Shown: in pieces, positions 30,337 to 39,940 of the stretch
Position numbering within the stretch: the first letter of the stretch is position 1
How the letters are laid out: the number at the start of each line of letters is the position of its first letter
The notes under the pieces: generated by a model
What the model was told of the DNA's origin: nothing
Seen by the model: only the letters and a program-made list of their open reading frames with translations
The model's database searches: none
Program-made: the position numbers and the translations under genes
Virus record (IMG/VR): IMGVR_UViG_3300027834_000001
Direction: 5' to 3' (one strand)
Length of the DNA stretch: 64,000 nucleotides
From: an uncultured virus (IMG/VR IMGVR_UViG_3300027834_000001)
Lineage: Duplodnaviria > Heunggongvirae > Uroviricota > Caudoviricetes

Positions 30337-31053
30337 ATGGATATCAACTTCAACGACACCGCATATACTGAGGCCTCTCTGGCCGACATGTCCGTTGACG
30401 ATCTTCTGACCCTGCGCAATGAAGTGGCTGTCAGCCTCGGCGTCGCGGAAGTGAAGGGTTTCAAAGATCAGGCGGCTGGCGCTACTCAGACCTGGAAGGC
30501 ACTGCAACGCCACTCGAAGGCGGCTGCGAGCGCTGAAAAGAAAGCTGCAAAAGCGAAGGCTCCACCCAAGGAGCGTGGACTTGCCAAGTCGGCGGAAGCC
30601 AAGACGGTCAAGCGTCCGAACAAGAAAATGTTTTCTACCATTACCAAAACTGGCGAACACGACGGCACTCAGGGACGGACCCATCGCTGGCCGAACTACA
30701 AAGACGGCATGACCATCGTTGACGTGATCGAGACCGAAGGCACCGAGCCGTGGGACGTCTACAATTGGGCTGGTCAGGGTATCATGTCTGTGACCGAGCC
30801 GACCGACGAAGAGTTCGCAACTCGCAAGGCGGCATGGTACAAGAAGCACGGCCTGACCGATCCGGAAGCGGCGAAAGCTGCCAAGGCAAAGGAACGCGCC
30901 GAAGCCAAGGAAGCTCGCGAGAAGGCCGCTGCTGAGAAGAAAGCGGAACGCGAAGCTGCCAAGGAAGCCAAGGCCAAAGAACGGGCCGAAGCGAAAGCTG
31001 TCAAAGAAAAGGCCGCTGCTGACAAAGCTGCTGCGAAGGCCGCTGCTGAGTAA
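30337..31053 (+). CDS. Putative DNA-binding protein with Lys/Ala/Glu-rich tail
   Basis: YKDGMTI central domain and about 60 aa of AKAKERAEAK-type repeats. Coupled to the modification cluster. Confidence 0.7.
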   Translation: MDINFNDTAYTEASLADMSVDDLLTLRNEVAVSLGVAEVKGFKDQAAGATQTWKALQRHSKAAASAEKKAAKAKAPPKERGLAKSAEAKTVKRPNKKMFSTITKTGEHDGTQGRTHRWPNYKDGMTIVDVIETEGTEPWDVYNWAGQGIMSVTEPTDEEFATRKAAWYKKHGLTDPEAAKAAKAKERAEAKEAREKAAAEKKAEREAAKEAKAKERAEAKAVKEKAAADKAAAKAAAE

Positions 31054-31964
31054 TGGGCCTTGAAAAAGTCAATGCGTTCTTCAGCTTTGTTGAGGAACGC
31101 GAACAGATCCGTCTCCGAAAGGAGGCGGATTTGCCGTATCCCTGGACTGAAGACTCGATCCTCAGGGACTACAAATTCACCAACGTTCATCGGCATCATG
31201 ATAGGACAAGCCGTGAACTACGGGAGCAATTTTACGATCAACATCGTGGATCCTCCTGCAAAACTATTCTCATGAATGCCGCTACGTTCCGATATTTCGG
31301 GACGCATGAATTTGCCTCTGCTTTGGGCTGGACTGATTTCAAAGATATGGATGATGACCATTGGGAATGGGTGAAAGAACTTGCGGAAGATAGACTGGCA
31401 GACAAAGAACGTGTCTTCACGGGCGCATACGTTATCACGAACCAAGGCATCTCCGCCCCTAAGCAAGAAGTCGTGGTTGATTATTTTCTCAAGGCTCTTC
31501 AGAAGGCAGCCCCGGAAGTAGTCGGCATTGCAATCGATACTCAAAGCTGGGAGAAAGTTGCTGATCGTATGCGGTTGATCAATGGTTTCGGAGGTTCTGG
31601 CTTCATGACCAAAGAGATCTTGCTTGACACCACCTACACTAAATTCTGGGACAATATGGTTGATCATCCAAAGGACGGACAGTTTAGCTTCCCTGTTGAT
31701 TGGGATAGCTGGACACCCATTGGTCCTGGAGCGAGACGTGGTGCAGCACGGGTCAGCGGTGACGACGAAGCCAAGCCACTTAAGGAAGAAGCTGCTGGTG
31801 ATGTGATCGACGATCTGCTGTTCCAGCAAGACTTGTTTCTACCTGACGAATGGGATACTCTTGCGCCTCACGATATCCAGTTTCAGCTTTGTGAATTCGA
31901 CAAGTATGAGCGTGTTCGCTTGGGCCAAGGACGACCACGGTCTCGCTACAAAGCACCAAAGTAA
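31053..31964 (+). CDS. 5-hmdU DNA kinase family (aGPT-Pplase1-like)
   Basis: ERE.IR.RK, PWTEDSIL..YKFTNV.R..DR, GPGARRG and LCEFDKYER. Confidence 0.85.
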   Translation: MGLEKVNAFFSFVEEREQIRLRKEADLPYPWTEDSILRDYKFTNVHRHHDRTSRELREQFYDQHRGSSCKTILMNAATFRYFGTHEFASALGWTDFKDMDDDHWEWVKELAEDRLADKERVFTGAYVITNQGISAPKQEVVVDYFLKALQKAAPEVVGIAIDTQSWEKVADRMRLINGFGGSGFMTKEILLDTTYTKFWDNMVDHPKDGQFSFPVDWDSWTPIGPGARRGAARVSGDDEAKPLKEEAAGDVIDDLLFQQDLFLPDEWDTLAPHDIQFQLCEFDKYERVRLGQGRPRSRYKAPK

Positions 31965-32048
31965 TCTGGAAGAGGGCGACAAATAGCACTTGTCTTTTGC
32001 GCCCTCCGCCGCTATGCTGGCTAAACATAACCTTTCGGAGATAGCCAA

Positions 32049-33320
32049 ATGAAGATACTGGTTGCGCTTCACAAGTGCATGGACCTCGGCGGTATTATTG
32101 ATCATACCGAGCAACTCATAGGCGGTCTCCAAGACCTCGGCCATGATGTTCACCTCAAAGAACTCGTATGGGCGTTTCAAGCCCCTGCACAACGTAAGAC
32201 AGCAGACTGGAGCATCGGCCCAAGTGGCATTCCACATCACCAAGGAAAGGGCTGGAACTTTGATCGGAAGGATCGCATTCCTTATCGTGGTGGCGCTGCT
32301 CTATCAGGCGCAAAGCAACGGCTCGAGGCTTACGACCTCATCATTTGGACAATGCCAGTTCCAAGCAAGAACAAAGACAATCTCGGTAACGATGACTGGC
32401 CAGAGTTGTACGACCTTCCAAAGCGCGTTAAGCAGGTTGCATTCATCCATGACGGGAATGCAGTAAAGGGAGCAGGTCATCTGCTGGCTATCCAGGACCG
32501 CCTCTCTGGGCTGGCCTGTGTTCACCCGTGCGCCCTCAATGGTGCCACCTTTGCAGACGTGCCTCGCACCATGATTGTCAATCCTCAGCTGAACCCCGTG
32601 CGTCCTTACGCCAAGTGGGAACAGAAGTCTCCAGGTTTCGTAAACATGCAGACCTTCAAGGCGTGGAAACATGCTCACGAACTGGTGGAAGCAGTTCACT
32701 ATATGCAGCCGCGTGGAGCCGACGAGTTGCGCGAGATCGCTGGCTTGGGCATTGAATACCGCTACATGACCAGCGAGGACAAGTGCAAGGATGCCTACTT
32801 CCACGCCAATGGTGAGAAGTTCTGGGACGCTGCACTGAACAACGGCATGACCCACCACGATTATTGGGATAAAGACCAAGTTGACAACTATCTCAACGAA
32901 GCCCGTGTCTTGGTCGACCCGTCATGGTCCAACAATTATTCAAAAGTCGGCGGTCACTTTAACCGTGTGGCCGTGGATGCAATGATGCGCGGCTGTTGTG
33001 TCTTGGCTCGACAAAAAGGGATGGGTTCGGAGTTGTTCCAGTCTGGTGAACACTACATGGCTATCCCCGAGGATGCTGATGCTCAGGAATATGCTGACCT
33101 CGTTCAGTATGCTGGCGGCATCGCACCGAAAACGGCACAACGCATGATTGATGCGAACCGTGAACTCTTACCCATGTTTGATCGGAAGACAGTGGCGCAA
33201 CGTGTCATTGATCTGGCACATGGTGAGATCGAAGTGGAGGAAGTCCAAGGGACAGCCAGCCATGCAATGGAAACCAAGGTCGAGAATATGTTGTTCGACC
33301 ATTTCGGAGTACTACTATAA
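32049..33320 (+). CDS. GT-B glycosyltransferase, putative DNA-modifying
   Basis: MKILV...GGI...L..L..LGHDV, FIHD and LVDPS...FNRVAVDAMMRGC. Confidence 0.75.
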   Translation: MKILVALHKCMDLGGIIDHTEQLIGGLQDLGHDVHLKELVWAFQAPAQRKTADWSIGPSGIPHHQGKGWNFDRKDRIPYRGGAALSGAKQRLEAYDLIIWTMPVPSKNKDNLGNDDWPELYDLPKRVKQVAFIHDGNAVKGAGHLLAIQDRLSGLACVHPCALNGATFADVPRTMIVNPQLNPVRPYAKWEQKSPGFVNMQTFKAWKHAHELVEAVHYMQPRGADELREIAGLGIEYRYMTSEDKCKDAYFHANGEKFWDAALNNGMTHHDYWDKDQVDNYLNEARVLVDPSWSNNYSKVGGHFNRVAVDAMMRGCCVLARQKGMGSELFQSGEHYMAIPEDADAQEYADLVQYAGGIAPKTAQRMIDANRELLPMFDRKTVAQRVIDLAHGEIEVEEVQGTASHAMETKVENMLFDHFGVLL

Positions 33321-34330
33321 TGGATATTGTTTCAGTTCGCAACGTGGAGGAAGCCCTCATCTTGGGCACGAAGGTTGTCAACTCTGTTGGTGTGCGGCGA
33401 GACAGCCGCAACGGTCCTGTGAAGGTCATGCCAATGCCAGTGACCACGATCTACAGTCACCCAAAGGAACGCGTCATGTTCCTGCCGGATCGCGACTGCA
33501 ACCCATACTTCCACTTCATGGAATGCCTCTGGATGCTGTCCGGTCGCCGTGACGTTGCTTGGATTTCACAGTTTAGCAGCAACATCGCCAACTACTCCGA
33601 TGATGGGATCAACTTCCATGGTGCCTACGGTTATCGCTGGCGGAACCACTTTACTGAGCCGGACGACAAGAACAACGTTCTCGATCAACTGGCCACCATC
33701 GCTGAACTTCTCAAGAAGAACCCCGATGACCGCCGCACTGTTCTCCAAATGTGGGACGCAACTGTTGACCTCGGTTTGGATGGCAAGGACTTCCCTTGCA
33801 ACCTGATCATCACCTTCCGGATCAATCCGCAGGGCCACCTTGATATGACTGTGTTCAATCGCAGTAACGATATGGTCTGGGGAGCCTACGGGGCGAACGC
33901 TGTTCACATGTCCTTCCTGCAAGAAGTCATGGCTTCATGGGTCGGTGTGCCTGTCGGCAAATACTGGCAGATCAGCACCAACTTCCACGCCTATCTGAAC
34001 ACACTGGCCAAGGTGGAGTCAGTGATGGACCTCTCTGCTGGGTTCACACCATACGAGCTCGATGAAGTTGCACCGTTTCCAATCGTCAGTTCTGGTATTG
34101 ATCAGTGGCATTCTGACTTGGCTATGTTCATGGACGAAGGTGCCAACGCGATGGGATACACTGACCAATTCTTCAAGAAGGTGGCCGTGCCTATGCTGCA
34201 ATCGTGGCAAGCGTGGAAAGATCGAGAAGCCCCTGACTTCATGGACAGCGCCGCTTACTACGCTGACCGCATCGCAGCTTCCGACTGGCGCAAAGCCTGT
34301 GTGGAATGGCTGGAGCGTCGGGACGTATGA
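33320..34330 (+). CDS. Thymidylate synthase-fold enzyme, probable dUMP hydroxymethylase
   Basis: SRNG, NPYFHFME.LW.L.GR.D, GAYGYRW, DFPCN, NRSND..WG.YGAN and NFHAY. Confidence 0.85.
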   Translation: MDIVSVRNVEEALILGTKVVNSVGVRRDSRNGPVKVMPMPVTTIYSHPKERVMFLPDRDCNPYFHFMECLWMLSGRRDVAWISQFSSNIANYSDDGINFHGAYGYRWRNHFTEPDDKNNVLDQLATIAELLKKNPDDRRTVLQMWDATVDLGLDGKDFPCNLIITFRINPQGHLDMTVFNRSNDMVWGAYGANAVHMSFLQEVMASWVGVPVGKYWQISTNFHAYLNTLAKVESVMDLSAGFTPYELDEVAPFPIVSSGIDQWHSDLAMFMDEGANAMGYTDQFFKKVAVPMLQSWQAWKDREAPDFMDSAAYYADRIAASDWRKACVEWLERRDV

Positions 34331-34899
34331 GCAGCAATGGACCCATCTACGTTTTTAACTCAGATGTAGAGCGCATCAAATACTCTCGTGAAGCAGCATG
34401 TGTTCAGAGGACACATGCGGCTCCTGGGATCGGCGACCACTCAGTCGGGAAGCATAGCTTCAACATGGTCACAATGCTTCTGATCATGTGGCCAGAAGCG
34501 CCACGTGAACTGATCGTCGCCTGCATCAAACATGATCTCCCAGAGCGGACAACGGGTGACATGCCTCATCCAGCGAAGCGGGCTGGTATCCAGAACGATG
34601 AAGCCCAAGCGGAAGCAGAGTTCGACATCAACGAGGGCTTGTTCGGTATCCACGAAGAACACTATCTTCCGGACGAACTGAAACTCTGGCTCTCTGGGCT
34701 GGACATGCTCGAATTCTACTGCTATTGCCGTGATCAGTGGATGATGGGCAACCGTTCAATTGAGACCAAGCTTCAACAAGTTGAGGCAATCATGCTGAAG
34801 AGCCCGCACTTGTTTCCCATTGAGATCGTGAATATGTATTATGAGATCAAGGACCACGATTGGGCTCAGATGCCAGATATCGGGGGACGTGTGGAATGA
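34327..34899 (+). CDS. HD-domain 5'-deoxynucleotidase (YfbR-like)
   Basis: R.H...HSVGKHS, HDLPE..TGDMP.P.K and DMLE. Confidence 0.85.
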   Translation: MSSNGPIYVFNSDVERIKYSREAACVQRTHAAPGIGDHSVGKHSFNMVTMLLIMWPEAPRELIVACIKHDLPERTTGDMPHPAKRAGIQNDEAQAEAEFDINEGLFGIHEEHYLPDELKLWLSGLDMLEFYCYCRDQWMMGNRSIETKLQQVEAIMLKSPHLFPIEIVNMYYEIKDHDWAQMPDIGGRVE

Positions 34900-35669
34900 G
34901 TCACGACCGTGACGTCAAGACCTGTGATTGCGGAAAGCAATTGTGGGACGGAGCAACCTGTAACTGCAAGGAACTGAAAATGAGAGCGACACAAGTCGGT
35001 GGTGACCACTATCAAGCGAAGTATCAGCATTGGGATTGGGCAGGCGATGTTCGCCTCGGCTACTACGAGAGCGCCGCTTCCAAGTATGCCTTCCGCTGGT
35101 ATAAGAAGAATGGCATCGAAGACTTGGACAAGGCGCGGTCCTACCTGCTCAAAGCCAAGGAGATGTTCTTGGAAGGTCGTTGGGACAACCGTTGTCTGCA
35201 CGTTGACAGCTGGCCGTTGGCTCGTGACAAGGCAGAAGACATGTTCGCAACCTTCTGTGATGAAGCCGTTGTGCCTATGATCGAGGCCGACCTCTGCCTT
35301 GCAATCGCTCAATGGCGTACCGACGCAGACCTCAGCATTATCATTGGCCATTTGGGAGCGCATATAGAAGCCGCACAGGGCGTGCTTGATGCTGGCGGCA
35401 CCCTTGGCCCATTGGTGGCCTTAAACGCGCCACAGGCCGCAAAAACAGGGGCCGCTGGACGTGCTGGTGGCACTACCACCCAAGGCGCGGCATCCAGCGC
35501 GTCCATAGGCGTCGCAATGAAGGCATTTGGCCCGTGTCCCTGCGGTTGCGGACAGCCACGCGCCAAGGGAATGAACTATGCGACCCTTGATTGTGCGAAG
35601 AATGTCCGCGCAGCAGAACTCAGTAAAGGGACTGACCATCCTGCTCCCTTTGGATATAAGGATGACTAA
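34896..35669 (+). CDS. DUF3310 (putative nucleotide kinase) protein with low-complexity/Cys tail
   Basis: QVGGDHY, KY..RW.KKNG.EDL.KA..YL, and CPCGCG near the C-terminus. Confidence 0.75.
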   Translation: MSHDRDVKTCDCGKQLWDGATCNCKELKMRATQVGGDHYQAKYQHWDWAGDVRLGYYESAASKYAFRWYKKNGIEDLDKARSYLLKAKEMFLEGRWDNRCLHVDSWPLARDKAEDMFATFCDEAVVPMIEADLCLAIAQWRTDADLSIIIGHLGAHIEAAQGVLDAGGTLGPLVALNAPQAAKTGAAGRAGGTTTQGAASSASIGVAMKAFGPCPCGCGQPRAKGMNYATLDCAKNVRAAELSKGTDHPAPFGYKDD

Positions 35670-35839
35670 TGAGATTTCTTAGAAGACTCTTTAGAAGAAT
35701 TACTGGTACTTCCAGAGGCAATCATTGGGCTGATGGTCTACCTAAATGTAAACATAGACCTGGACCTTCTGGTCAAAGAAGGTGTCAGAATATCGCTACA
35801 CATAGTAGATATTGCTCTATTCATCGTTGGATACACTAA
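35669..35839 (+). CDS. Small basic C3H zinc-finger-like protein (56 aa)
   Basis: KCKHRPGPSGQRRCQNIATHSRYCSIH. TAATG overlaps at both ends. Confidence 0.55.
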   Translation: MRFLRRLFRRITGTSRGNHWADGLPKCKHRPGPSGQRRCQNIATHSRYCSIHRWIH

Positions 35840-36240
35840 TGATCATTAAGGGATGGGCCTCAGTATGGGGTGAATGCGATAGCCATAGTGATGTCACAGT
35901 GAAAGGTAGTTTCAAGAAAGATCTCAAGAAGTTTGACTACACAAGACCGATGCTTCTGCACCATGACAAGGCACAAATCATCGGTCGATGGGACGTGATC
36001 AAAGAGAAAAAGTATGGTCTCTGGTGTGAAGGAACAGTCCTCGATGATAACGCACAGTTTTGGATCAAAGAACACTGCCTTTCTGGTCTATCAATTGGTT
36101 ATGCTGGCCGAAGAGAATTCAGGAAGCGTGGTCTGTGCATGTTACAACAGATTGAATTAGAAGAGATCTCCGTAACTTCAATTCCCGCTAATAGAGCGGC
36201 AAGAATTATGGAGATCATTGCCGATGGCAAAGCAGACTAA
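35839..36240 (+). CDS. HK97-family prohead protease (S78), displaced
   Basis: GWASVW...D, PMLLHHD..IG.W, GLSIGY and LEEISVTSIPAN..ARI. Confidence 0.85.
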   Translation: MIIKGWASVWGECDSHSDVTVKGSFKKDLKKFDYTRPMLLHHDKAQIIGRWDVIKEKKYGLWCEGTVLDDNAQFWIKEHCLSGLSIGYAGRREFRKRGLCMLQQIELEEISVTSIPANRAARIMEIIADGKAD

Positions 36241-38299
36241 ACAAGCCGCCGCGAAAGCTAGGAATGATGGGACCTCTCCCCTCCAGATGTCAATGTTTAC
36301 GCCCAAGGCAGACTGGCGTCCTCCTGCGATCTCAGACCTTCCCTCTTGGGCCAATGTAAAAAGGATAGCGATTGATGCTGAAACAAGGGATCCGTCACTT
36401 AGCGCAGGGCTTGGAACAGGCCAGATGCGAGATGGCTACACTGTCGGATGGGCTTTCGCACTTGATGGTGGACCAAAGCACTATCTTCCTTTCCGACATG
36501 AGGGCGGCGACAACCTGGATCAAGACGAAGTGTTGCGATACCTCAGAGACAACATCAAAGGGTTCAAAGGAGAGTACGTTGGAGCAAATCTCGCTTACGA
36601 TGTCGACTACGGATATAACGATGGCTTTGAATGGCATCGCGAGGCTAAGTTCCGTGATATCCAGATTGCAGACCCATTGCTCTACGAACTCCACTGGTCG
36701 TATTCGCTTGCCAACATTGGTGAGCGATGCGGAGTTGAAGCGAAGGATGAAACGCTCCTCATCGAAGCAGCTAAAGCGCACGGACTTGATGCAAAGAAAG
36801 GACTATGGCGGCTACCCGCTCGCTTTGTCGGGGCGTATGGTGAACAAGACGTCACCTCGCCGCTTGAAATCCTACGAATACAAGAAGAAAAAATTGAGAA
36901 AGCAGGCCTCCGCGAAATCTGGGACCTCGAGACGGATGTCCTCCCTGTTCTCGTAAGGATGCGTCGCCGTGGTGTGCGGATTGACTTTGACAAACTGGCA
37001 TCCATTGAAAAGTGGGCGCTAGATGAAGAGCAGAAGTCCATTGATCTGGTCAAGCGTGAGACAGGTGTCTCCATTGGGCTGGACAACATCTGGAAACCGA
37101 ACGTTCTTGCGCCTGCGCTTGAGGAAATCGGTATGCGTCTCAATAAGACATCAACTGGCGCACCACAGATCGACAAGGCTTTGCTCGGAGGCGCAGACCA
37201 TCCCGTGCCGGAGGCTATCCTCCATGCTCGCAAGGTAAACAAGATCAGGACAACCTTCGCTGCATCAATTCGCAAGTATGCAGTCAACGGTAAGATCCAC
37301 TGCTCGTTCAAGCAGATTGCAGCCGAGGATGAGCAAGGCAGACAGAAAGGTGTTCGTTATGGCAGGCTCTCGGCGGTTGATCCTAACCTCCAACAGCAGC
37401 CTAGCCCTGACCGTGATCCAATTATTGCTGGCGAATGGAGAAAGATCTTCATCCCTGAAGAAGGAGCAATCTGGGGCTGCAACGACTATTCCCAGCAAGA
37501 ACCCAGATGGACAACACACTTCGCCGCCCTCATGGACTTCCCAAAAGCCAGAGACGCAGCCAAACGATACAGAGACGACCCAAGTACAGACAATCATGAA
37601 ATGATGACCCGTATCGTTAATGGTGATACAGCGGTTGACGCATGGCTGGCTGATAACCCAAAGCAATTCAAGTTGGAGCGAGGGTTCTCCAAGGCTATCT
37701 ACCTTGGGCTATGCTATGGTGAAGGCGGAGCCAAACTCTGCGAGGACATCGGCAAGCCTACTCGTTGGGCACATATCTCAGGATGGGGCAAGAAACGCCG
37801 CATTGATTACTACGAAGATAAGCAAGATGCGATGGCTGCAAGGATGGATGCGGGGACTGGCTACTATAAGGAGATGGCTGGTGAAGAGGGACAAGAGATA
37901 CTGGATAAATTCGATCGGGAAGCGCCGTTTGTGGGAGCATTGGCGAAAGCTGCGACAGCAAGGGCCGAAGGTAAGGGTTTCGTCAAGACGATATTTAACA
38001 GGCACCTTCATTTTGAACAACGAGACGATGGTTCCTACGACTTCACCCACAAAGCCCTGAACAGAGTGATCCAAGGCTCGTCTGCAGACCAGACAAAGCT
38101 GGCACTGGTCGAGATTGACAAGACAGACGCGTATCTGCAATTGCAGGTCCACGATGAAACGGATGGCAGTTATGGCTCGGTCGCAGAAGCGGTGGCAGTC
38201 GGTGATATTATGAGGGACTGTGTTCTTAAGCGATGTCGACCTCTAGTTCCATTCAAAGTCGACACCGAGTGCGGTCCTAGCTGGGGAGAAATTAAATGA
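36218..38299 (+). CDS. polA: DNA polymerase, family A, with 3'-5' exonuclease
   Basis: AIDAET, GRLS..DPNLQQ, DYSQQEPR, KAIYLGLCYG, IQGSSADQTK and QVHDE. Confidence 0.95.
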   Translation: MPMAKQTKQAAAKARNDGTSPLQMSMFTPKADWRPPAISDLPSWANVKRIAIDAETRDPSLSAGLGTGQMRDGYTVGWAFALDGGPKHYLPFRHEGGDNLDQDEVLRYLRDNIKGFKGEYVGANLAYDVDYGYNDGFEWHREAKFRDIQIADPLLYELHWSYSLANIGERCGVEAKDETLLIEAAKAHGLDAKKGLWRLPARFVGAYGEQDVTSPLEILRIQEEKIEKAGLREIWDLETDVLPVLVRMRRRGVRIDFDKLASIEKWALDEEQKSIDLVKRETGVSIGLDNIWKPNVLAPALEEIGMRLNKTSTGAPQIDKALLGGADHPVPEAILHARKVNKIRTTFAASIRKYAVNGKIHCSFKQIAAEDEQGRQKGVRYGRLSAVDPNLQQQPSPDRDPIIAGEWRKIFIPEEGAIWGCNDYSQQEPRWTTHFAALMDFPKARDAAKRYRDDPSTDNHEMMTRIVNGDTAVDAWLADNPKQFKLERGFSKAIYLGLCYGEGGAKLCEDIGKPTRWAHISGWGKKRRIDYYEDKQDAMAARMDAGTGYYKEMAGEEGQEILDKFDREAPFVGALAKAATARAEGKGFVKTIFNRHLHFEQRDDGSYDFTHKALNRVIQGSSADQTKLALVEIDKTDAYLQLQVHDETDGSYGSVAEAVAVGDIMRDCVLKRCRPLVPFKVDTECGPSWGEIK

Positions 38300-38948: not shown

Positions 38949-39488
38949 TTGAAACATTGCATGTTAGACTTGGAGACCTACGGCACGGGCGCAGGCTGCG
39001 TGATCCGCTCCATTGGTGCAGTCGCTTTTGACCCAAGAACACCTTCCTTGGGCGCAGAGTTCTACAAGAACATCACTGAAGAAGATCAGCTTGCCGCTGG
39101 TGCCTTCAAAGACCCGAATACGGTTAAATGGTGGGAACAGCAAGGTCAGGAAGCCAAGGACGTCCTTGAGCAGAACCAAGTCGACCTGAAAACTGTGGTC
39201 AACGGCTTCAACAACTTCTGGAAGGCAAACCGCTTCAAGTTCGTTTGGTCACAAGGCTCTAACTTCGACAGCGTCCTGTGGGAAGCGACCTGCAAGTTTG
39301 TCGGTGTCAAACCGCCGTGGCAGTTCTTCAACACCCGTGATACCCGCACGATCTACGACGCCTCTGGCTTGAATACCAAGACCATCCAGCGTCAGGGTAT
39401 CTACCACTATGCTCTGGACGACTGCAAGCACCAAGTCCGCTGCATCTACAAGTCGTACATGATGATCGACAAGGTGGAAAAGCGATGA
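38949..39488 (+). CDS. 3'-5' exonuclease (DEDDh, Rv2179c-like)
   Basis: MLDLET.G, SIGAV.FD, NFD, RDTRT and HYALDDC.HQ. TTG start. Confidence 0.85.
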   Translation: MKHCMLDLETYGTGAGCVIRSIGAVAFDPRTPSLGAEFYKNITEEDQLAAGAFKDPNTVKWWEQQGQEAKDVLEQNQVDLKTVVNGFNNFWKANRFKFVWSQGSNFDSVLWEATCKFVGVKPPWQFFNTRDTRTIYDASGLNTKTIQRQGIYHYALDDCKHQVRCIYKSYMMIDKVEKR

Positions 39489-39940
39489 GTATCCATGACA
39501 TGTTCATGGGACACGCTGTTCACGCCAGCAAGTTCAGTCCTGATCCCTCCACGAAGGTGGGGTCGGTGATTGTTCTTGAAGGCAGAGTGTTCTCAGTTGG
39601 ATGGAACCAGTTTCCTCAAGGTGTGGAAGACAGTCCTGAGCGATGGGAAGATCGCGCCCAAAAGTATCCAAGAGTGATCCATGCAGAAGCTGATGCCCTT
39701 GTCGCAGCCGGAAGGATGATGCACCGAGAGCGTCCTCTTCTTGGGTTCGAGGACGCCACCCTCTACACCACTGAATTCCCTTGCTGCTCTTGCTGTGGAC
39801 TGATTATCCAGCATGGCATCAAGAAAGTTGTGTCTCAGGATTTGGCCAGCGACTACGCTGAACGGTGGGCAAAAGAGATTGAAATCTCCAAGTCGATGTT
39901 CGGTGAAGCGGGAGTGGAATTAGAGGTAATTCCCCGATAA
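39485..39940 (+). CDS. dCMP deaminase
   Basis: S.DPSTKVG, HAE..A and PCCSC zinc motifs. Confidence 0.9.
   Translation: MSIHDMFMGHAVHASKFSPDPSTKVGSVIVLEGRVFSVGWNQFPQGVEDSPERWEDRAQKYPRVIHAEADALVAAGRMMHRERPLLGFEDATLYTTEFPCCSCCGLIIQHGIKKVVSQDLASDYAERWAKEIEISKSMFGEAGVELEVIPR

What the first reader, a model, noticed from the sequence alone, without database searches (positions are those of the whole stretch)
31053..35669. Thymidine hypermodification cluster with a glycosyltransferase in place of amino acid transferases
Seen: adjacent genes for a 5-hmdU DNA kinase-like protein, a GT-B glycosyltransferase, a TS-fold enzyme, an HD nucleotidase and DUF3310, with dCMP deaminase and MazG downstream. Known: in M6/ViI-type phages hmdU replaces T, is phosphorylated on DNA and is then substituted by amino acid:DNA transferases with PLP or radical-SAM tailoring. 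None of those tailoring genes was recognised here. Inference: the product is a sugar- or phosphosugar-modified hmdU, possibly an uncharacterised base that protects against restriction.
Basis: partly seen in the sequence, partly recalled or inferred. Interest (0 to 1): 0.72.

Follow-up and report, generated by a model that had tools for sequence, protein, structure and literature searches.

The report
Kinase-free sugar tagging of phage thymine
An uncultured relative of Pseudomonas phage M6 carries genes that most likely swap thymine for hydroxymethyluracil and then attach a sugar straight onto it in DNA, a base known from trypanosomes, while the gene read as a DNA kinase is not a kinase.

Summary
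The five-gene cluster is real, but its first gene is not a kinase. ORF 31053-31964 matches PF18723 and M6 gp55, an orphan helix-hairpin-helix paralogue of the amino-acid:DNA transferases. The true kinase (PF18748, M6 gp54) and the transferase (PF18724) are absent from this nearly complete phage genome and from 25 of 25 related contigs (9 at least 90% complete). The TS-fold enzyme is a dUMP-hydroxymethylase orthologue (50% identical to M6 gp58). The GT-B belongs to an uncatalogued viral family with no cultured carrier. In 63 of 65 loci holding both flanking genes, the slot between them contains a glycosyltransferase-type gene. In 26 of these it is TAGT, a DNA-acting family, which never co-occurs with this GT-B. 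Best reading (about 0.66): direct, kinase-free glycosylation of 5-hmU in DNA, a base-J-like nucleotide, probably alpha-linked. The phosphosugar reading loses its basis. Sugar identity, acceptor and the role of the gp55 homologue are untested. My searches found no measured phage glycosyl-hmU. Cultured phages PhiJL001 and LuckyBarnes carry the TAGT version and make it testable. This scan has reported the same kind of cassette before, in 12 findings on other DNA.

The parts
30337..31053 (+). Lys/Ala-rich protein whose N-terminus matches M6 gp49; conserved first gene of the cassette, role unknown
   Evidence: tblastn 44% over 61 aa, E 3e-10; precedes the PF18723 gene in related loci
31053..31964 (+). 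aGPT-Pplase clade 1 (PF18723, M6 gp55 homologue): HhH-fold DNA-base enzyme of unknown role with invariant Cys280; not a kinase
32049..33320 (+). GT-B glycosyltransferase of an uncatalogued viral family (GT4/T4-AGT-like, retaining type by fold); predicted DNA 5-hmU glycosyltransferase
33320..34330 (+). dUMP hydroxymethylase orthologue (TS fold; Cys160, RSND, Asn193)
   Evidence: 49.9% identical to M6 gp58, E 4e-110; motif comparison; tree
34327..34899 (+). HD/YfbR-like nucleotidase (M6 gp59 homologue); probable start 34327 overlaps the TS stop; likely nucleotide-pool cleaning
34896..35669 (+). DUF3310 protein (M6 gp61 homologue) with a long low-complexity tail; probable start 34896
36218..38299 (+). 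Family A DNA polymerase (M6 gp62 homologue), would incorporate hmdUTP
   Evidence: 47% identical to M6 gp62; PF00476
38585..38947 (+). Weakly MazG-like protein, possible dNTP pyrophosphatase
   Evidence: PF12643 E 0.03, below cut-off; HisE-type hit E 0.006
39485..39940 (+). dCMP deaminase, supplies dUMP; a dCTP-deaminase-like gene takes its place in several relatives
   Evidence: PF00383 E 7e-20

Best explanation
Two-stage, kinase-free sugar modification of thymine positions. (1) Before replication, dCMP deaminase makes dUMP and the TS-fold enzyme turns it into 5-hydroxymethyl-dUMP. The HD and MazG-like proteins trim competing nucleotides, host kinases make the triphosphate, and the phage polymerase incorporates it (orthology shown; chemistry inferred from M6 and SPO1-type phages). 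(2) After replication, the GT-B transfers a sugar from a host NDP-sugar directly to the 5-hydroxymethyl oxygen of hmU in DNA. No phosphate leaving group is needed because the donor is the activated partner (inferred from gene context). The product is a glycosyloxymethyl-uracil like trypanosome base J, most likely a common hexose since the phage encodes no sugar-nucleotide genes, and more likely alpha-linked than beta (inferred from the retaining-type fold). It probably covers only part of the T positions. The gp55 homologue acts on hmU-DNA in some route-independent way and is probably not needed for the transfer (weakest step). Likely purpose: shielding DNA from host nucleases.
For: No kinase or amino-acid transferase: PF18748 and PF18724 in 0 of 25 GT-bearing contigs, 0 of 9 at least 90% complete, with M6 ringing as control. 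A six-frame Walker A scan of the window and 5 complete relatives found no kinase-type gene; the recurrent hits on coding frames are the helicase and terminase. The window is colinear with complete genome G001 and lacks only about 0.8 kb around the terminase end. Slot swap: of 73 loci found with the PF18723 alignment, 65 also hold the TS gene. Between the two lie this GT-B in 34, TAGT in 26 (2 with a second GT4-like gene), a GT4-like gene alone in 1, an unconfirmed GT-like family in 2, a kinase in 1 and nothing recognised in 1; GT-B and TAGT co-occur in 0 of 65. After clustering at 90%: 26 GT-B and 20 TAGT of 51. TAGT sits at the DNA beta-GT position in T-even phages (PMC13390438), and phage GT-A DNA glycosyltransferases resemble the base-J enzyme JGT (10.1101/2023.12.21.572611). 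On a 29-row TS tree the GT-B label needs 6 changes, at least 4 forced by well-supported branches, so the exchange was repeated. The TS has Asn nine residues after RSND, as in M6, PhiJL001 and SPO1-like CampHawk, where T4 dCMP hydroxymethylase has Asp at +8. The GT model (pLDDT 88) has T4 alpha-glucosyltransferase tied for best match (Z 24.2, rmsd 4.1, 342 aligned) against Z 16.6 for T4 beta-GT. M6 gp55 was dispensable in lysate reconstitution of the M6 glycine-transfer step (PMC8989533).
Against: No activity was measured. The AGT likeness is not specific: a non-DNA glycosyltransferase (6eji) ties at Z 24.2 and HepE is within 1; E. coli WaaB scores as well as AGT by hhalign (P 6e-5 versus 1e-4); 0 of 111 family members hit Pfam AGT PF11440. 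T4 beta-GT works on hmU:G but not on hmU:A (PMC8565368), so acting on paired hmU would be a new activity for a GT-B. The locus sample is biased: seeds came from GT-linked sequences, so M6-type loci were not retrieved, and the slot profiles were built partly from the same loci. Escherichia phage EP_H11 pairs a GT-like gene and PF18723 with a P-loop protein, so sugar and kinase routes may coexist elsewhere. The invariant PF18723 gene is unexplained. Several T-containing palindromes are wholly absent from the window (GCATGC 0 of 13 expected, ATGCAT 0 of 12), which suggests incomplete protection.
Confidence: 0.66

Rival explanations
1. The PF18723 protein is an obligatory partner: it flips out or covalently activates hmU through Cys280, or installs a linker, and the GT then adds the sugar.
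For: Upstream of the GT in 25 of 25 loci; Cys280 invariant in 19 of 19; fold matches include the PaMx11 transferase gp46 (Z 9.3); language-model neighbours are ADDT clusters; T4 beta-GT cannot use paired hmU alone.
Against: It accompanies unrelated slot occupants (GT-B, TAGT, kinase), which argues against a dedicated partner. By eye, the acidic metal-binding position of the transferases reads Gln in this clade. Record MW202897 has TAGT-TS-HD with no gene of that size beside it (the rest of that genome was not searched).
Confidence: 0.1
2. The GT acts on a non-DNA acceptor (virion protein, host surface glycan, small molecule) and the DNA carries plain hmU.
For: The fold and sequence matches include many LPS, glycolipid and small-molecule GT4 enzymes; no AGT Pfam hit.
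Against: Fixed position between two hmU-pathway genes, one-base overlap with the TS start, exchange with TAGT in the same slot, and no relative in 185,579 prokaryotic genomes by a two-pattern scan.
Confidence: 0.08
3. The sugar is added at the nucleotide level (to hmdUMP or hmdUTP) and the glycosylated nucleotide is incorporated by the phage polymerase.
For: Tight coupling to the TS gene; many GT4 enzymes use small acceptors.
Against: Known phage pyrimidine glycosylation happens on DNA (PMC13326640 introduction); the polymerase is an ordinary M6-type enzyme (47%); the phage shows no kinase of its own for a bulky nucleotide.
Confidence: 0.06
4. The TS homologue makes a different base, for example 5-hydroxy-dUMP by analogy with RB69 5-hydroxy-dCMP, and the sugar is joined directly to O5; or it is an ordinary thymidylate synthase.
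For: TS homologues can hydroxylate (PMC13326640, abstract); M6 gp58 activity itself is inferred in the papers I read.
Against: 50% identity and the same active-site string as M6 gp58; M6 gp58 nests among GT-partnered enzymes on the tree; scores far below NCBIfam thymidylate-synthase cut-offs.
Confidence: 0.06
5. One reading: hmU is phosphorylated on DNA and the sugar is linked through or in place of the phosphate.
For: Phospho-oligosaccharide thymidines exist in SP-15 and Carin-5 (PMC12686479); EP_H11 has a P-loop protein in a similar cluster.
Against: No kinase in the window or in relatives: PF18748 in 0 of 25 and 1 of 42 (that contig, L075, has no GT in the slot); no Walker A candidate. PF18747 and PF18751 were not found over cut-off in 15 genomes, though PF18747 had no positive control.
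Confidence: 0.04

Closest known systems
M6/YuA/PaMx11/ViI thymidine hypermodification (Lee 2018 PMC5889632; Lee 2022 PMC8989533)
   Same: Same genome layout and orthologues of M6 gp49, gp55, gp58, gp59, gp61, gp62 and gp65; hmU made before replication.
   Different: No 5-hmdU kinase, amino-acid:DNA transferase, PLP or radical-SAM gene; a GT-B sits between the gp55 and gp58 homologues.
Trypanosome base J (JBP1/2 plus JGT)
   Same: Predicted product class: sugar on the hydroxymethyl oxygen of hmU in DNA, with no kinase.
   Different: hmU comes from a TS-fold enzyme at nucleotide level, not a DNA dioxygenase; the GT is GT-B, not GT-A; sugar and anomer unknown (alpha more likely).
T4 hmC glucosylation (gp42, alpha-GT, beta-GT)
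   Same: Same logic of a TS-fold hydroxymethylase plus a GT-B; alpha-GT is tied for best structural match.
   Different: Uracil-type active site; about 10% identity to alpha-GT and no PF11440 match.
Phage TET/ThyS-associated DNA glycosyltransferases, TAGT PF20691 (Burke 2021 PMC8256090; Pyle 10.1101/2023.12.21.572611)
   Same: DNA glycosylation of a hydroxymethyl-pyrimidine, with epimerase partners; TAGT fills the same slot in 26 of 65 related loci and in PhiJL001 and LuckyBarnes. Pyle et al. report that about 28% of mined GT-B contigs lie near a ThyS gene.
   Different: The enzymes characterised in the passages I read act on 5hmC; the ThyS-linked contigs were mined there, and I saw no test of them on hmU.
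SP-15 / Carin-5 / YerA41 phospho-oligosaccharide thymidines (PMC12686479)
   Same: Sugar-bearing T analogue in a phage.
   Different: Those carry a linker, a phosphate and a block of sugar-nucleotide genes; none is seen here.

Membership tests
5-hmdU DNA kinase (PF18748, M6 gp54), for ORF 31053 | Walker A motif | tested here: not met
   None in this ORF; the M6 and L075 kinases are detected by the same scan
5-hmdU DNA kinase (PF18748, M6 gp54), for ORF 31053 | Match to PF18748 or to gp54 | tested here: not met
   Only PF18723; gp54 hits PF18748 as control; no gp54 hit in the window
5-hmdU DNA kinase (PF18748, M6 gp54), for ORF 31053 | Alpha/beta fold with a central sheet | tested here: not met
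   Model at pLDDT 88 is helical apart from one hairpin
aGPT-Pplase clade 1 (PF18723, M6 gp55) | Full-length profile match and HhH-type fold | tested here: met
   114 bits versus cut-off 25, residues 6-290; the top 23 structural matches are DNA glycosylases, queuine-salvage DUF2419 and PaMx11 gp46, best Z 9.7, modest for a helical protein
Amino-acid:DNA transferase (PF18724), for ORF 31053 | Match to PF18724 | tested here: not met
   No hit; hhalign to M6 gp51 P 0.07
Amino-acid:DNA transferase (PF18724), for ORF 31053 | Catalytic Cys with neighbouring Glu | tested here: inconclusive
   Cys280 invariant; the equivalent of the Glu appears to be Gln276, aligned by eye only
M6/ViI-type thymidine hypermodification pathway | dUMP hydroxymethylase gene | tested here: met
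M6/ViI-type thymidine hypermodification pathway | 5-hmdU kinase gene | tested here: not met
M6/ViI-type thymidine hypermodification pathway | Amino-acid:DNA transferase gene | tested here: not met
dUMP hydroxymethylase (M6/SPO1 type) | Catalytic Cys, RSND and uracil-selecting Asn at +9 | tested here: met
   Shared with M6, PhiJL001 and CampHawk, not with T4 gp42; the role of the Asn is recalled from thymidylate-synthase enzymology
dUMP hydroxymethylase (M6/SPO1 type) | Makes hmdUMP | not testable with these tools
   Needs an enzyme assay
T4 alpha-glucosyltransferase family (PF11440) | GT-B fold | tested here: met
T4 alpha-glucosyltransferase family (PF11440) | Profile match to PF11440 | tested here: not met
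   0 of 111 members at E 0.01
T4 alpha-glucosyltransferase family (PF11440) | Closer to AGT than to cellular GT4 enzymes | tested here: inconclusive
   Tie at Z 24.2; WaaB control equal, WaaG lower; AGT clusters rank 7 and bacterial GT4 rank 16 in the Atlas, both at 0.98
T4 alpha-glucosyltransferase family (PF11440) | Transfers sugar to a base in DNA | not testable with these tools
   Needs an assay
Base J pathway | JBP/TET thymine dioxygenase | tested here: not met
   None among 84 window ORFs scanned with Pfam
Base J pathway | GT-A fold J-glucosyltransferase | tested here: not met
   The GT is GT-B
Base J pathway | Product is beta-D-glucosyl-hmU | not testable with these tools
   Needs LC-MS and NMR
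SP-15/Carin-5 phosphosugar thymidine system | Block of sugar-nucleotide genes and several glycosyltransferases | tested here: not met
   One GT and no such genes recognised in 84 ORFs; many early-region ORFs have no Pfam match

The most novel reading that the evidence does not exclude
A widespread group of uncultured M6-like phages makes a family of glycosyl-hydroxymethyluracil bases with a modular slot. This phage makes the alpha-anomer of base J with a new GT-B family able to act on paired hmU:A, which T4 beta-GT cannot do. Relatives use TAGT, two further GT families, FkbM methyltransferases, epimerases and SPASM radical-SAM enzymes to vary the sugar. The orphan aGPT-Pplase1 is the shared base-flipping or editing component of all hmU routes.
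Probability: 0.3. Interest if true: 0.8.

Novelty: new variant of a known kind. Interest (0 to 1): 0.62.

Why it matters
[quoted passage not shown] If the reading holds, it adds a sugar branch to thymidine hypermodification that bypasses the phosphorylated intermediate central to the characterised M6/ViI pathways, and it gives a viral parallel to base J. An enzyme that glycosylates paired hmU:A would also be a labelling tool that T4 beta-GT cannot supply. The finding also corrects a recurring annotation trap: Pfam's name for PF18723 makes a non-kinase look like a kinase.

Tried and rejected
Kinase reading of ORF 31053: rejected. Restriction-site signature: GC-only 6-base palindromes are strongly depleted in the window (8 seen, 61 expected) relative to T-containing ones, but lambda, T7, VP2 and SIO1 show the same pattern and M6 the opposite, so it says nothing about T modification. 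Specific kinship to T4 alpha-GT by sequence: weak with 21 rows (P 0.05), better with 111 rows (P 1e-4), but matched by the WaaB control. Reading the L080/L091 family as T4 beta-GT-like: not significant; kept as unconfirmed. Promoter and terminator scan: counts at chance level. GT in cultured phages: no match in 50,697 records. GT in prokaryotic genomes: none (two patterns only). A locus search with the deep GT alignment could not run, so the gene context of distant family members is unknown. A first 61-row TS tree was unfinished and misplaced the long T4 branch; I rebuilt it with 29 chosen rows, leaving out long branches and near-copies. A GT plus PF18723 complex prediction was never obtained, so binding is open. 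Foldseek gave no match under E 0.001 for the PF18723 model. Iyer et al. 2013 was not available.


Full report
Setting. The window is almost a whole tailed-phage genome. It is colinear with the complete contig G001 (66,259 bp, terminal repeats) at 69-90% nucleotide identity and lacks only about 0.8 kb around the end of the terminase gene. Gene order from helicase to primase follows Pseudomonas phage M6 of the Mesyanzhinovviridae. The host is unknown.

Observation. The five genes are present, adjacent and on the + strand. Pfam confirms the GT (Glycos_transf_1, E 1.7e-7), the TS fold (E 1e-24), the HD domain (E 6e-7) and dCMP deaminase (E 7e-20). DUF3310 (E 5e-4) and MazG-like (E 0.03) are below cut-off. 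No amino-acid transferase, PLP, radical-SAM, FkbM or sugar-nucleotide gene was recognised among 84 window ORFs, and M6 gp51-53 have no tblastn match.

The first gene is not a kinase. It matches PF18723, which Pfam names '5-hmdU DNA kinase, helical domain'. It is 27.6% identical to M6 gp55 (E 1.6e-26), while the proven kinase gp54 finds nothing in the window; gp54 itself matches a different family, PF18748. The name probably comes from SP10 gp186, where the kinase and this domain are fused (PMC5889632 Table 3; the link to the Pfam name is my inference). The model (pLDDT 88) is helical apart from one hairpin. Its top 23 structural matches are DNA glycosylases, the queuine-salvage protein DUF2419 and the PaMx11 transferase gp46, with best Z 9.7, modest for a helical protein. 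In the M6 lysate reconstitution gp55 was dispensable for the glycine-transfer step (PMC8989533).

No kinase elsewhere. A six-frame scan of the window and five complete relatives found Walker A motifs recurring only in the helicase and terminase; the other hits were one-off matches, mostly in short or antisense frames. A two-sequence kinase profile gave no hit under E 0.36 outside its own seeds. PF18748 and PF18724 were found in 0 of 25 GT-bearing contigs, 9 of them at least 90% complete, and in the M6 control. Among 42 further contigs PF18748 rang once, in L075, which has no GT in the slot. This also shows the search sees a divergent kinase. PF18747 and PF18751 were not found over cut-off in 15 genomes; PF18747 had no positive control.

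The TS enzyme. It is 49.9% identical to M6 gp58, with the same active-site string. Its Asn nine residues after RSND is shared with M6, PhiJL001 and the SPO1-like phage CampHawk, whereas T4 dCMP hydroxymethylase has Asp at +8. dCMP deaminase, or a dCTP-deaminase-like gene in relatives (five sequences, one Pfam-tested), fits a flux toward dUMP. I take it as a dUMP hydroxymethylase; the activity is inferred.

The GT. It has no match in 50,697 GenBank phage records or in a two-pattern scan of prokaryotic genomes. It has 25 IMG/VR loci, 258 proteins among 8,000 candidates scored and 273 representatives at 50% clustering. The model is GT-B. T4 alpha-glucosyltransferase ties for first (Z 24.2, rmsd 4.1, 342 aligned) with a non-DNA glycosyltransferase, and T4 beta-GT scores 16.6. 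Sequence does not single out AGT: P 1e-4 by hhalign against 6e-5 for E. coli WaaB, and 0 of 111 members match PF11440. The fold therefore suggests a retaining enzyme (class label recalled) but does not show a DNA acceptor.

Gene context carries the argument. The order gp55-like, GT, TS, HD, DUF3310, polymerase holds in 24 of 25 loci, the last being cut off. Searching from the gp55-like side gave 73 loci; 8 lack the TS gene within the fetched DNA and were dropped. In the other 65 the slot holds this GT-B (34), TAGT (24), TAGT with a GT4-like gene (2), a GT4-like gene (1), an unconfirmed GT-like family (2), a kinase (1) or nothing recognised (1). GT-B and TAGT never co-occur there. Nineteen of the TAGT proteins were called by Pfam, some below cut-off, and the rest by my own profile. 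TAGT occupies the beta-GT position in T6-like phages (PMC13390438), and phage GT-A enzymes shown to glycosylate 5hmC resemble JGT. On a 29-row TS tree the GT-B label needs 6 changes, at least 4 forced, and is never one group in 200 bootstrap trees; M6 gp58 falls among GT-partnered enzymes. Unrelated glycosyltransferases thus replace each other repeatedly in one position next to the hmU synthase. The sample is biased toward GT-linked loci because the seeds came from them.

Cultured carriers. PhiJL001 has PF18723 (gp19), TAGT (gp22) and the TS gene (gp24). Brevibacterium phage LuckyBarnes has TS, two TAGT genes and PF18723. Neither has PF18748. Escherichia phage EP_H11 has a GT-like gene, PF18723, a P-loop protein and TS, a possible mixed case.

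Mechanism. Shown: gene content, orthology, folds, absence of the kinase and transferase, and the slot exchange. Inferred: hmdUMP synthesis, incorporation, and direct transfer of a sugar from a host NDP-sugar to hmU in DNA, probably alpha-linked and partial. M6 DNA itself keeps canonical T at about 70% of T positions. Against it: T4 beta-GT acts on hmU:G but not hmU:A (PMC8565368), the gp55 homologue is unexplained, and some T-containing palindromes are absent from the genome. A palindrome signal that first looked supportive failed its controls.

Literature. [quoted passage not shown] Searches turned up no later measurement; the library lacks most subscription papers. What I saw: PMC8989533, passages and sections 21 and 23; PMC13326640, abstract and introduction; PMC12686479, part 1 of 6; PMC13458397, abstract and passages; passages only of PMC5889632, PMC11472151, PMC13229309, PMC13390438, PMC8256090, PMC6449724, PMC8565368, PMC11946847 and 10.1101/2023.12.21.572611. 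I read no supplements. Those of Pyle et al., which list ThyS-linked GT contigs, may include this family. Iyer et al. 2013 was not held; I recall that it predicted base-J-like systems in phages, unverified, so the idea may be in print as a prediction.

Earlier scan notes. After recording my reading, I found 12 earlier findings on other DNA with the same conclusion. They are unchecked notes and add no evidence.

Verdict. Real and conserved; the kinase label is wrong; a kinase-free glycosyl-hmU pathway is the best reading (0.66). New variant of a known kind, interest 0.62.

Noticed in passing
window 35812-36240: A stand-alone prohead protease gene (PF04586, E 1e-17) sits between DUF3310 and the polymerase, far from the head genes; present in L002, L006, L008 and L023, absent in the other loci.
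   Followed up: no
L025 7327-8004; L012 14151-14855; L061 6930-7646: An FkbM methyltransferase is present in 8 of 14 GT-B contigs searched, sometimes inside the slot, but not in the window or its closest relatives; it may methylate the sugar.
   Followed up: partly
L061 7568-8647; L066, L069, L070, L073, L082, L086, L095, L097, L102: A radical-SAM/SPASM enzyme lies in the slot in 14 of 65 loci, with either GT family; candidate sugar-tailoring enzyme.
   Followed up: partly
L057 6901-7848; L059, L060, L064, L065: NDP-sugar epimerase paired with TAGT in 5 of 65 loci, suggesting a non-glucose sugar.
   Followed up: partly
L080 7527-8549; L091 1072-2049; L128 5001-6080: A further GT-like family of about 330 aa fills the slot; it has a homologue in Escherichia phage EP_H11 next to PF18723, a P-loop protein, TS, HD and a PIG-L deacetylase.
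   Followed up: partly
L075 7181-8306: Kinase plus PF18723 plus TS with no amino-acid transferase or GT recognised in the locus, and an unassigned 182-aa gene.
   Followed up: no
L087 6013-8421: A PF18723 gene next to a ThyX gene with no TS-fold gene in the locus, so the family can occur without an adjacent hmU synthase.
   Followed up: no
L002 5340-5825; L004 7584-8105; L014 11507-11983: A conserved 160-170 aa His-rich protein, cupin-like by eye, follows DUF3310 in some relatives; no Pfam or NCBIfam match for the L002 copy.
   Followed up: partly
L010, L011, L012, L013, L015, L017, L021 between the PF18723 gene and the GT: A small hydrophobic ORF of 77-83 aa lies in the slot in 7 of 25 loci.
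   Followed up: no
window 31972-32020: An imperfect hairpin and a sigma-70-like pair of hexamers upstream of the GT, seen by eye; the scanner did not list them.
   Followed up: partly
window 1-64000: Six-base palindromes GGCGCC, GCATGC, ATGCAT and GTGCAC are wholly absent (13, 13, 12 and 7 expected); G020 lacks GTAC altogether. Possible traces of host restriction enzymes.
   Followed up: partly
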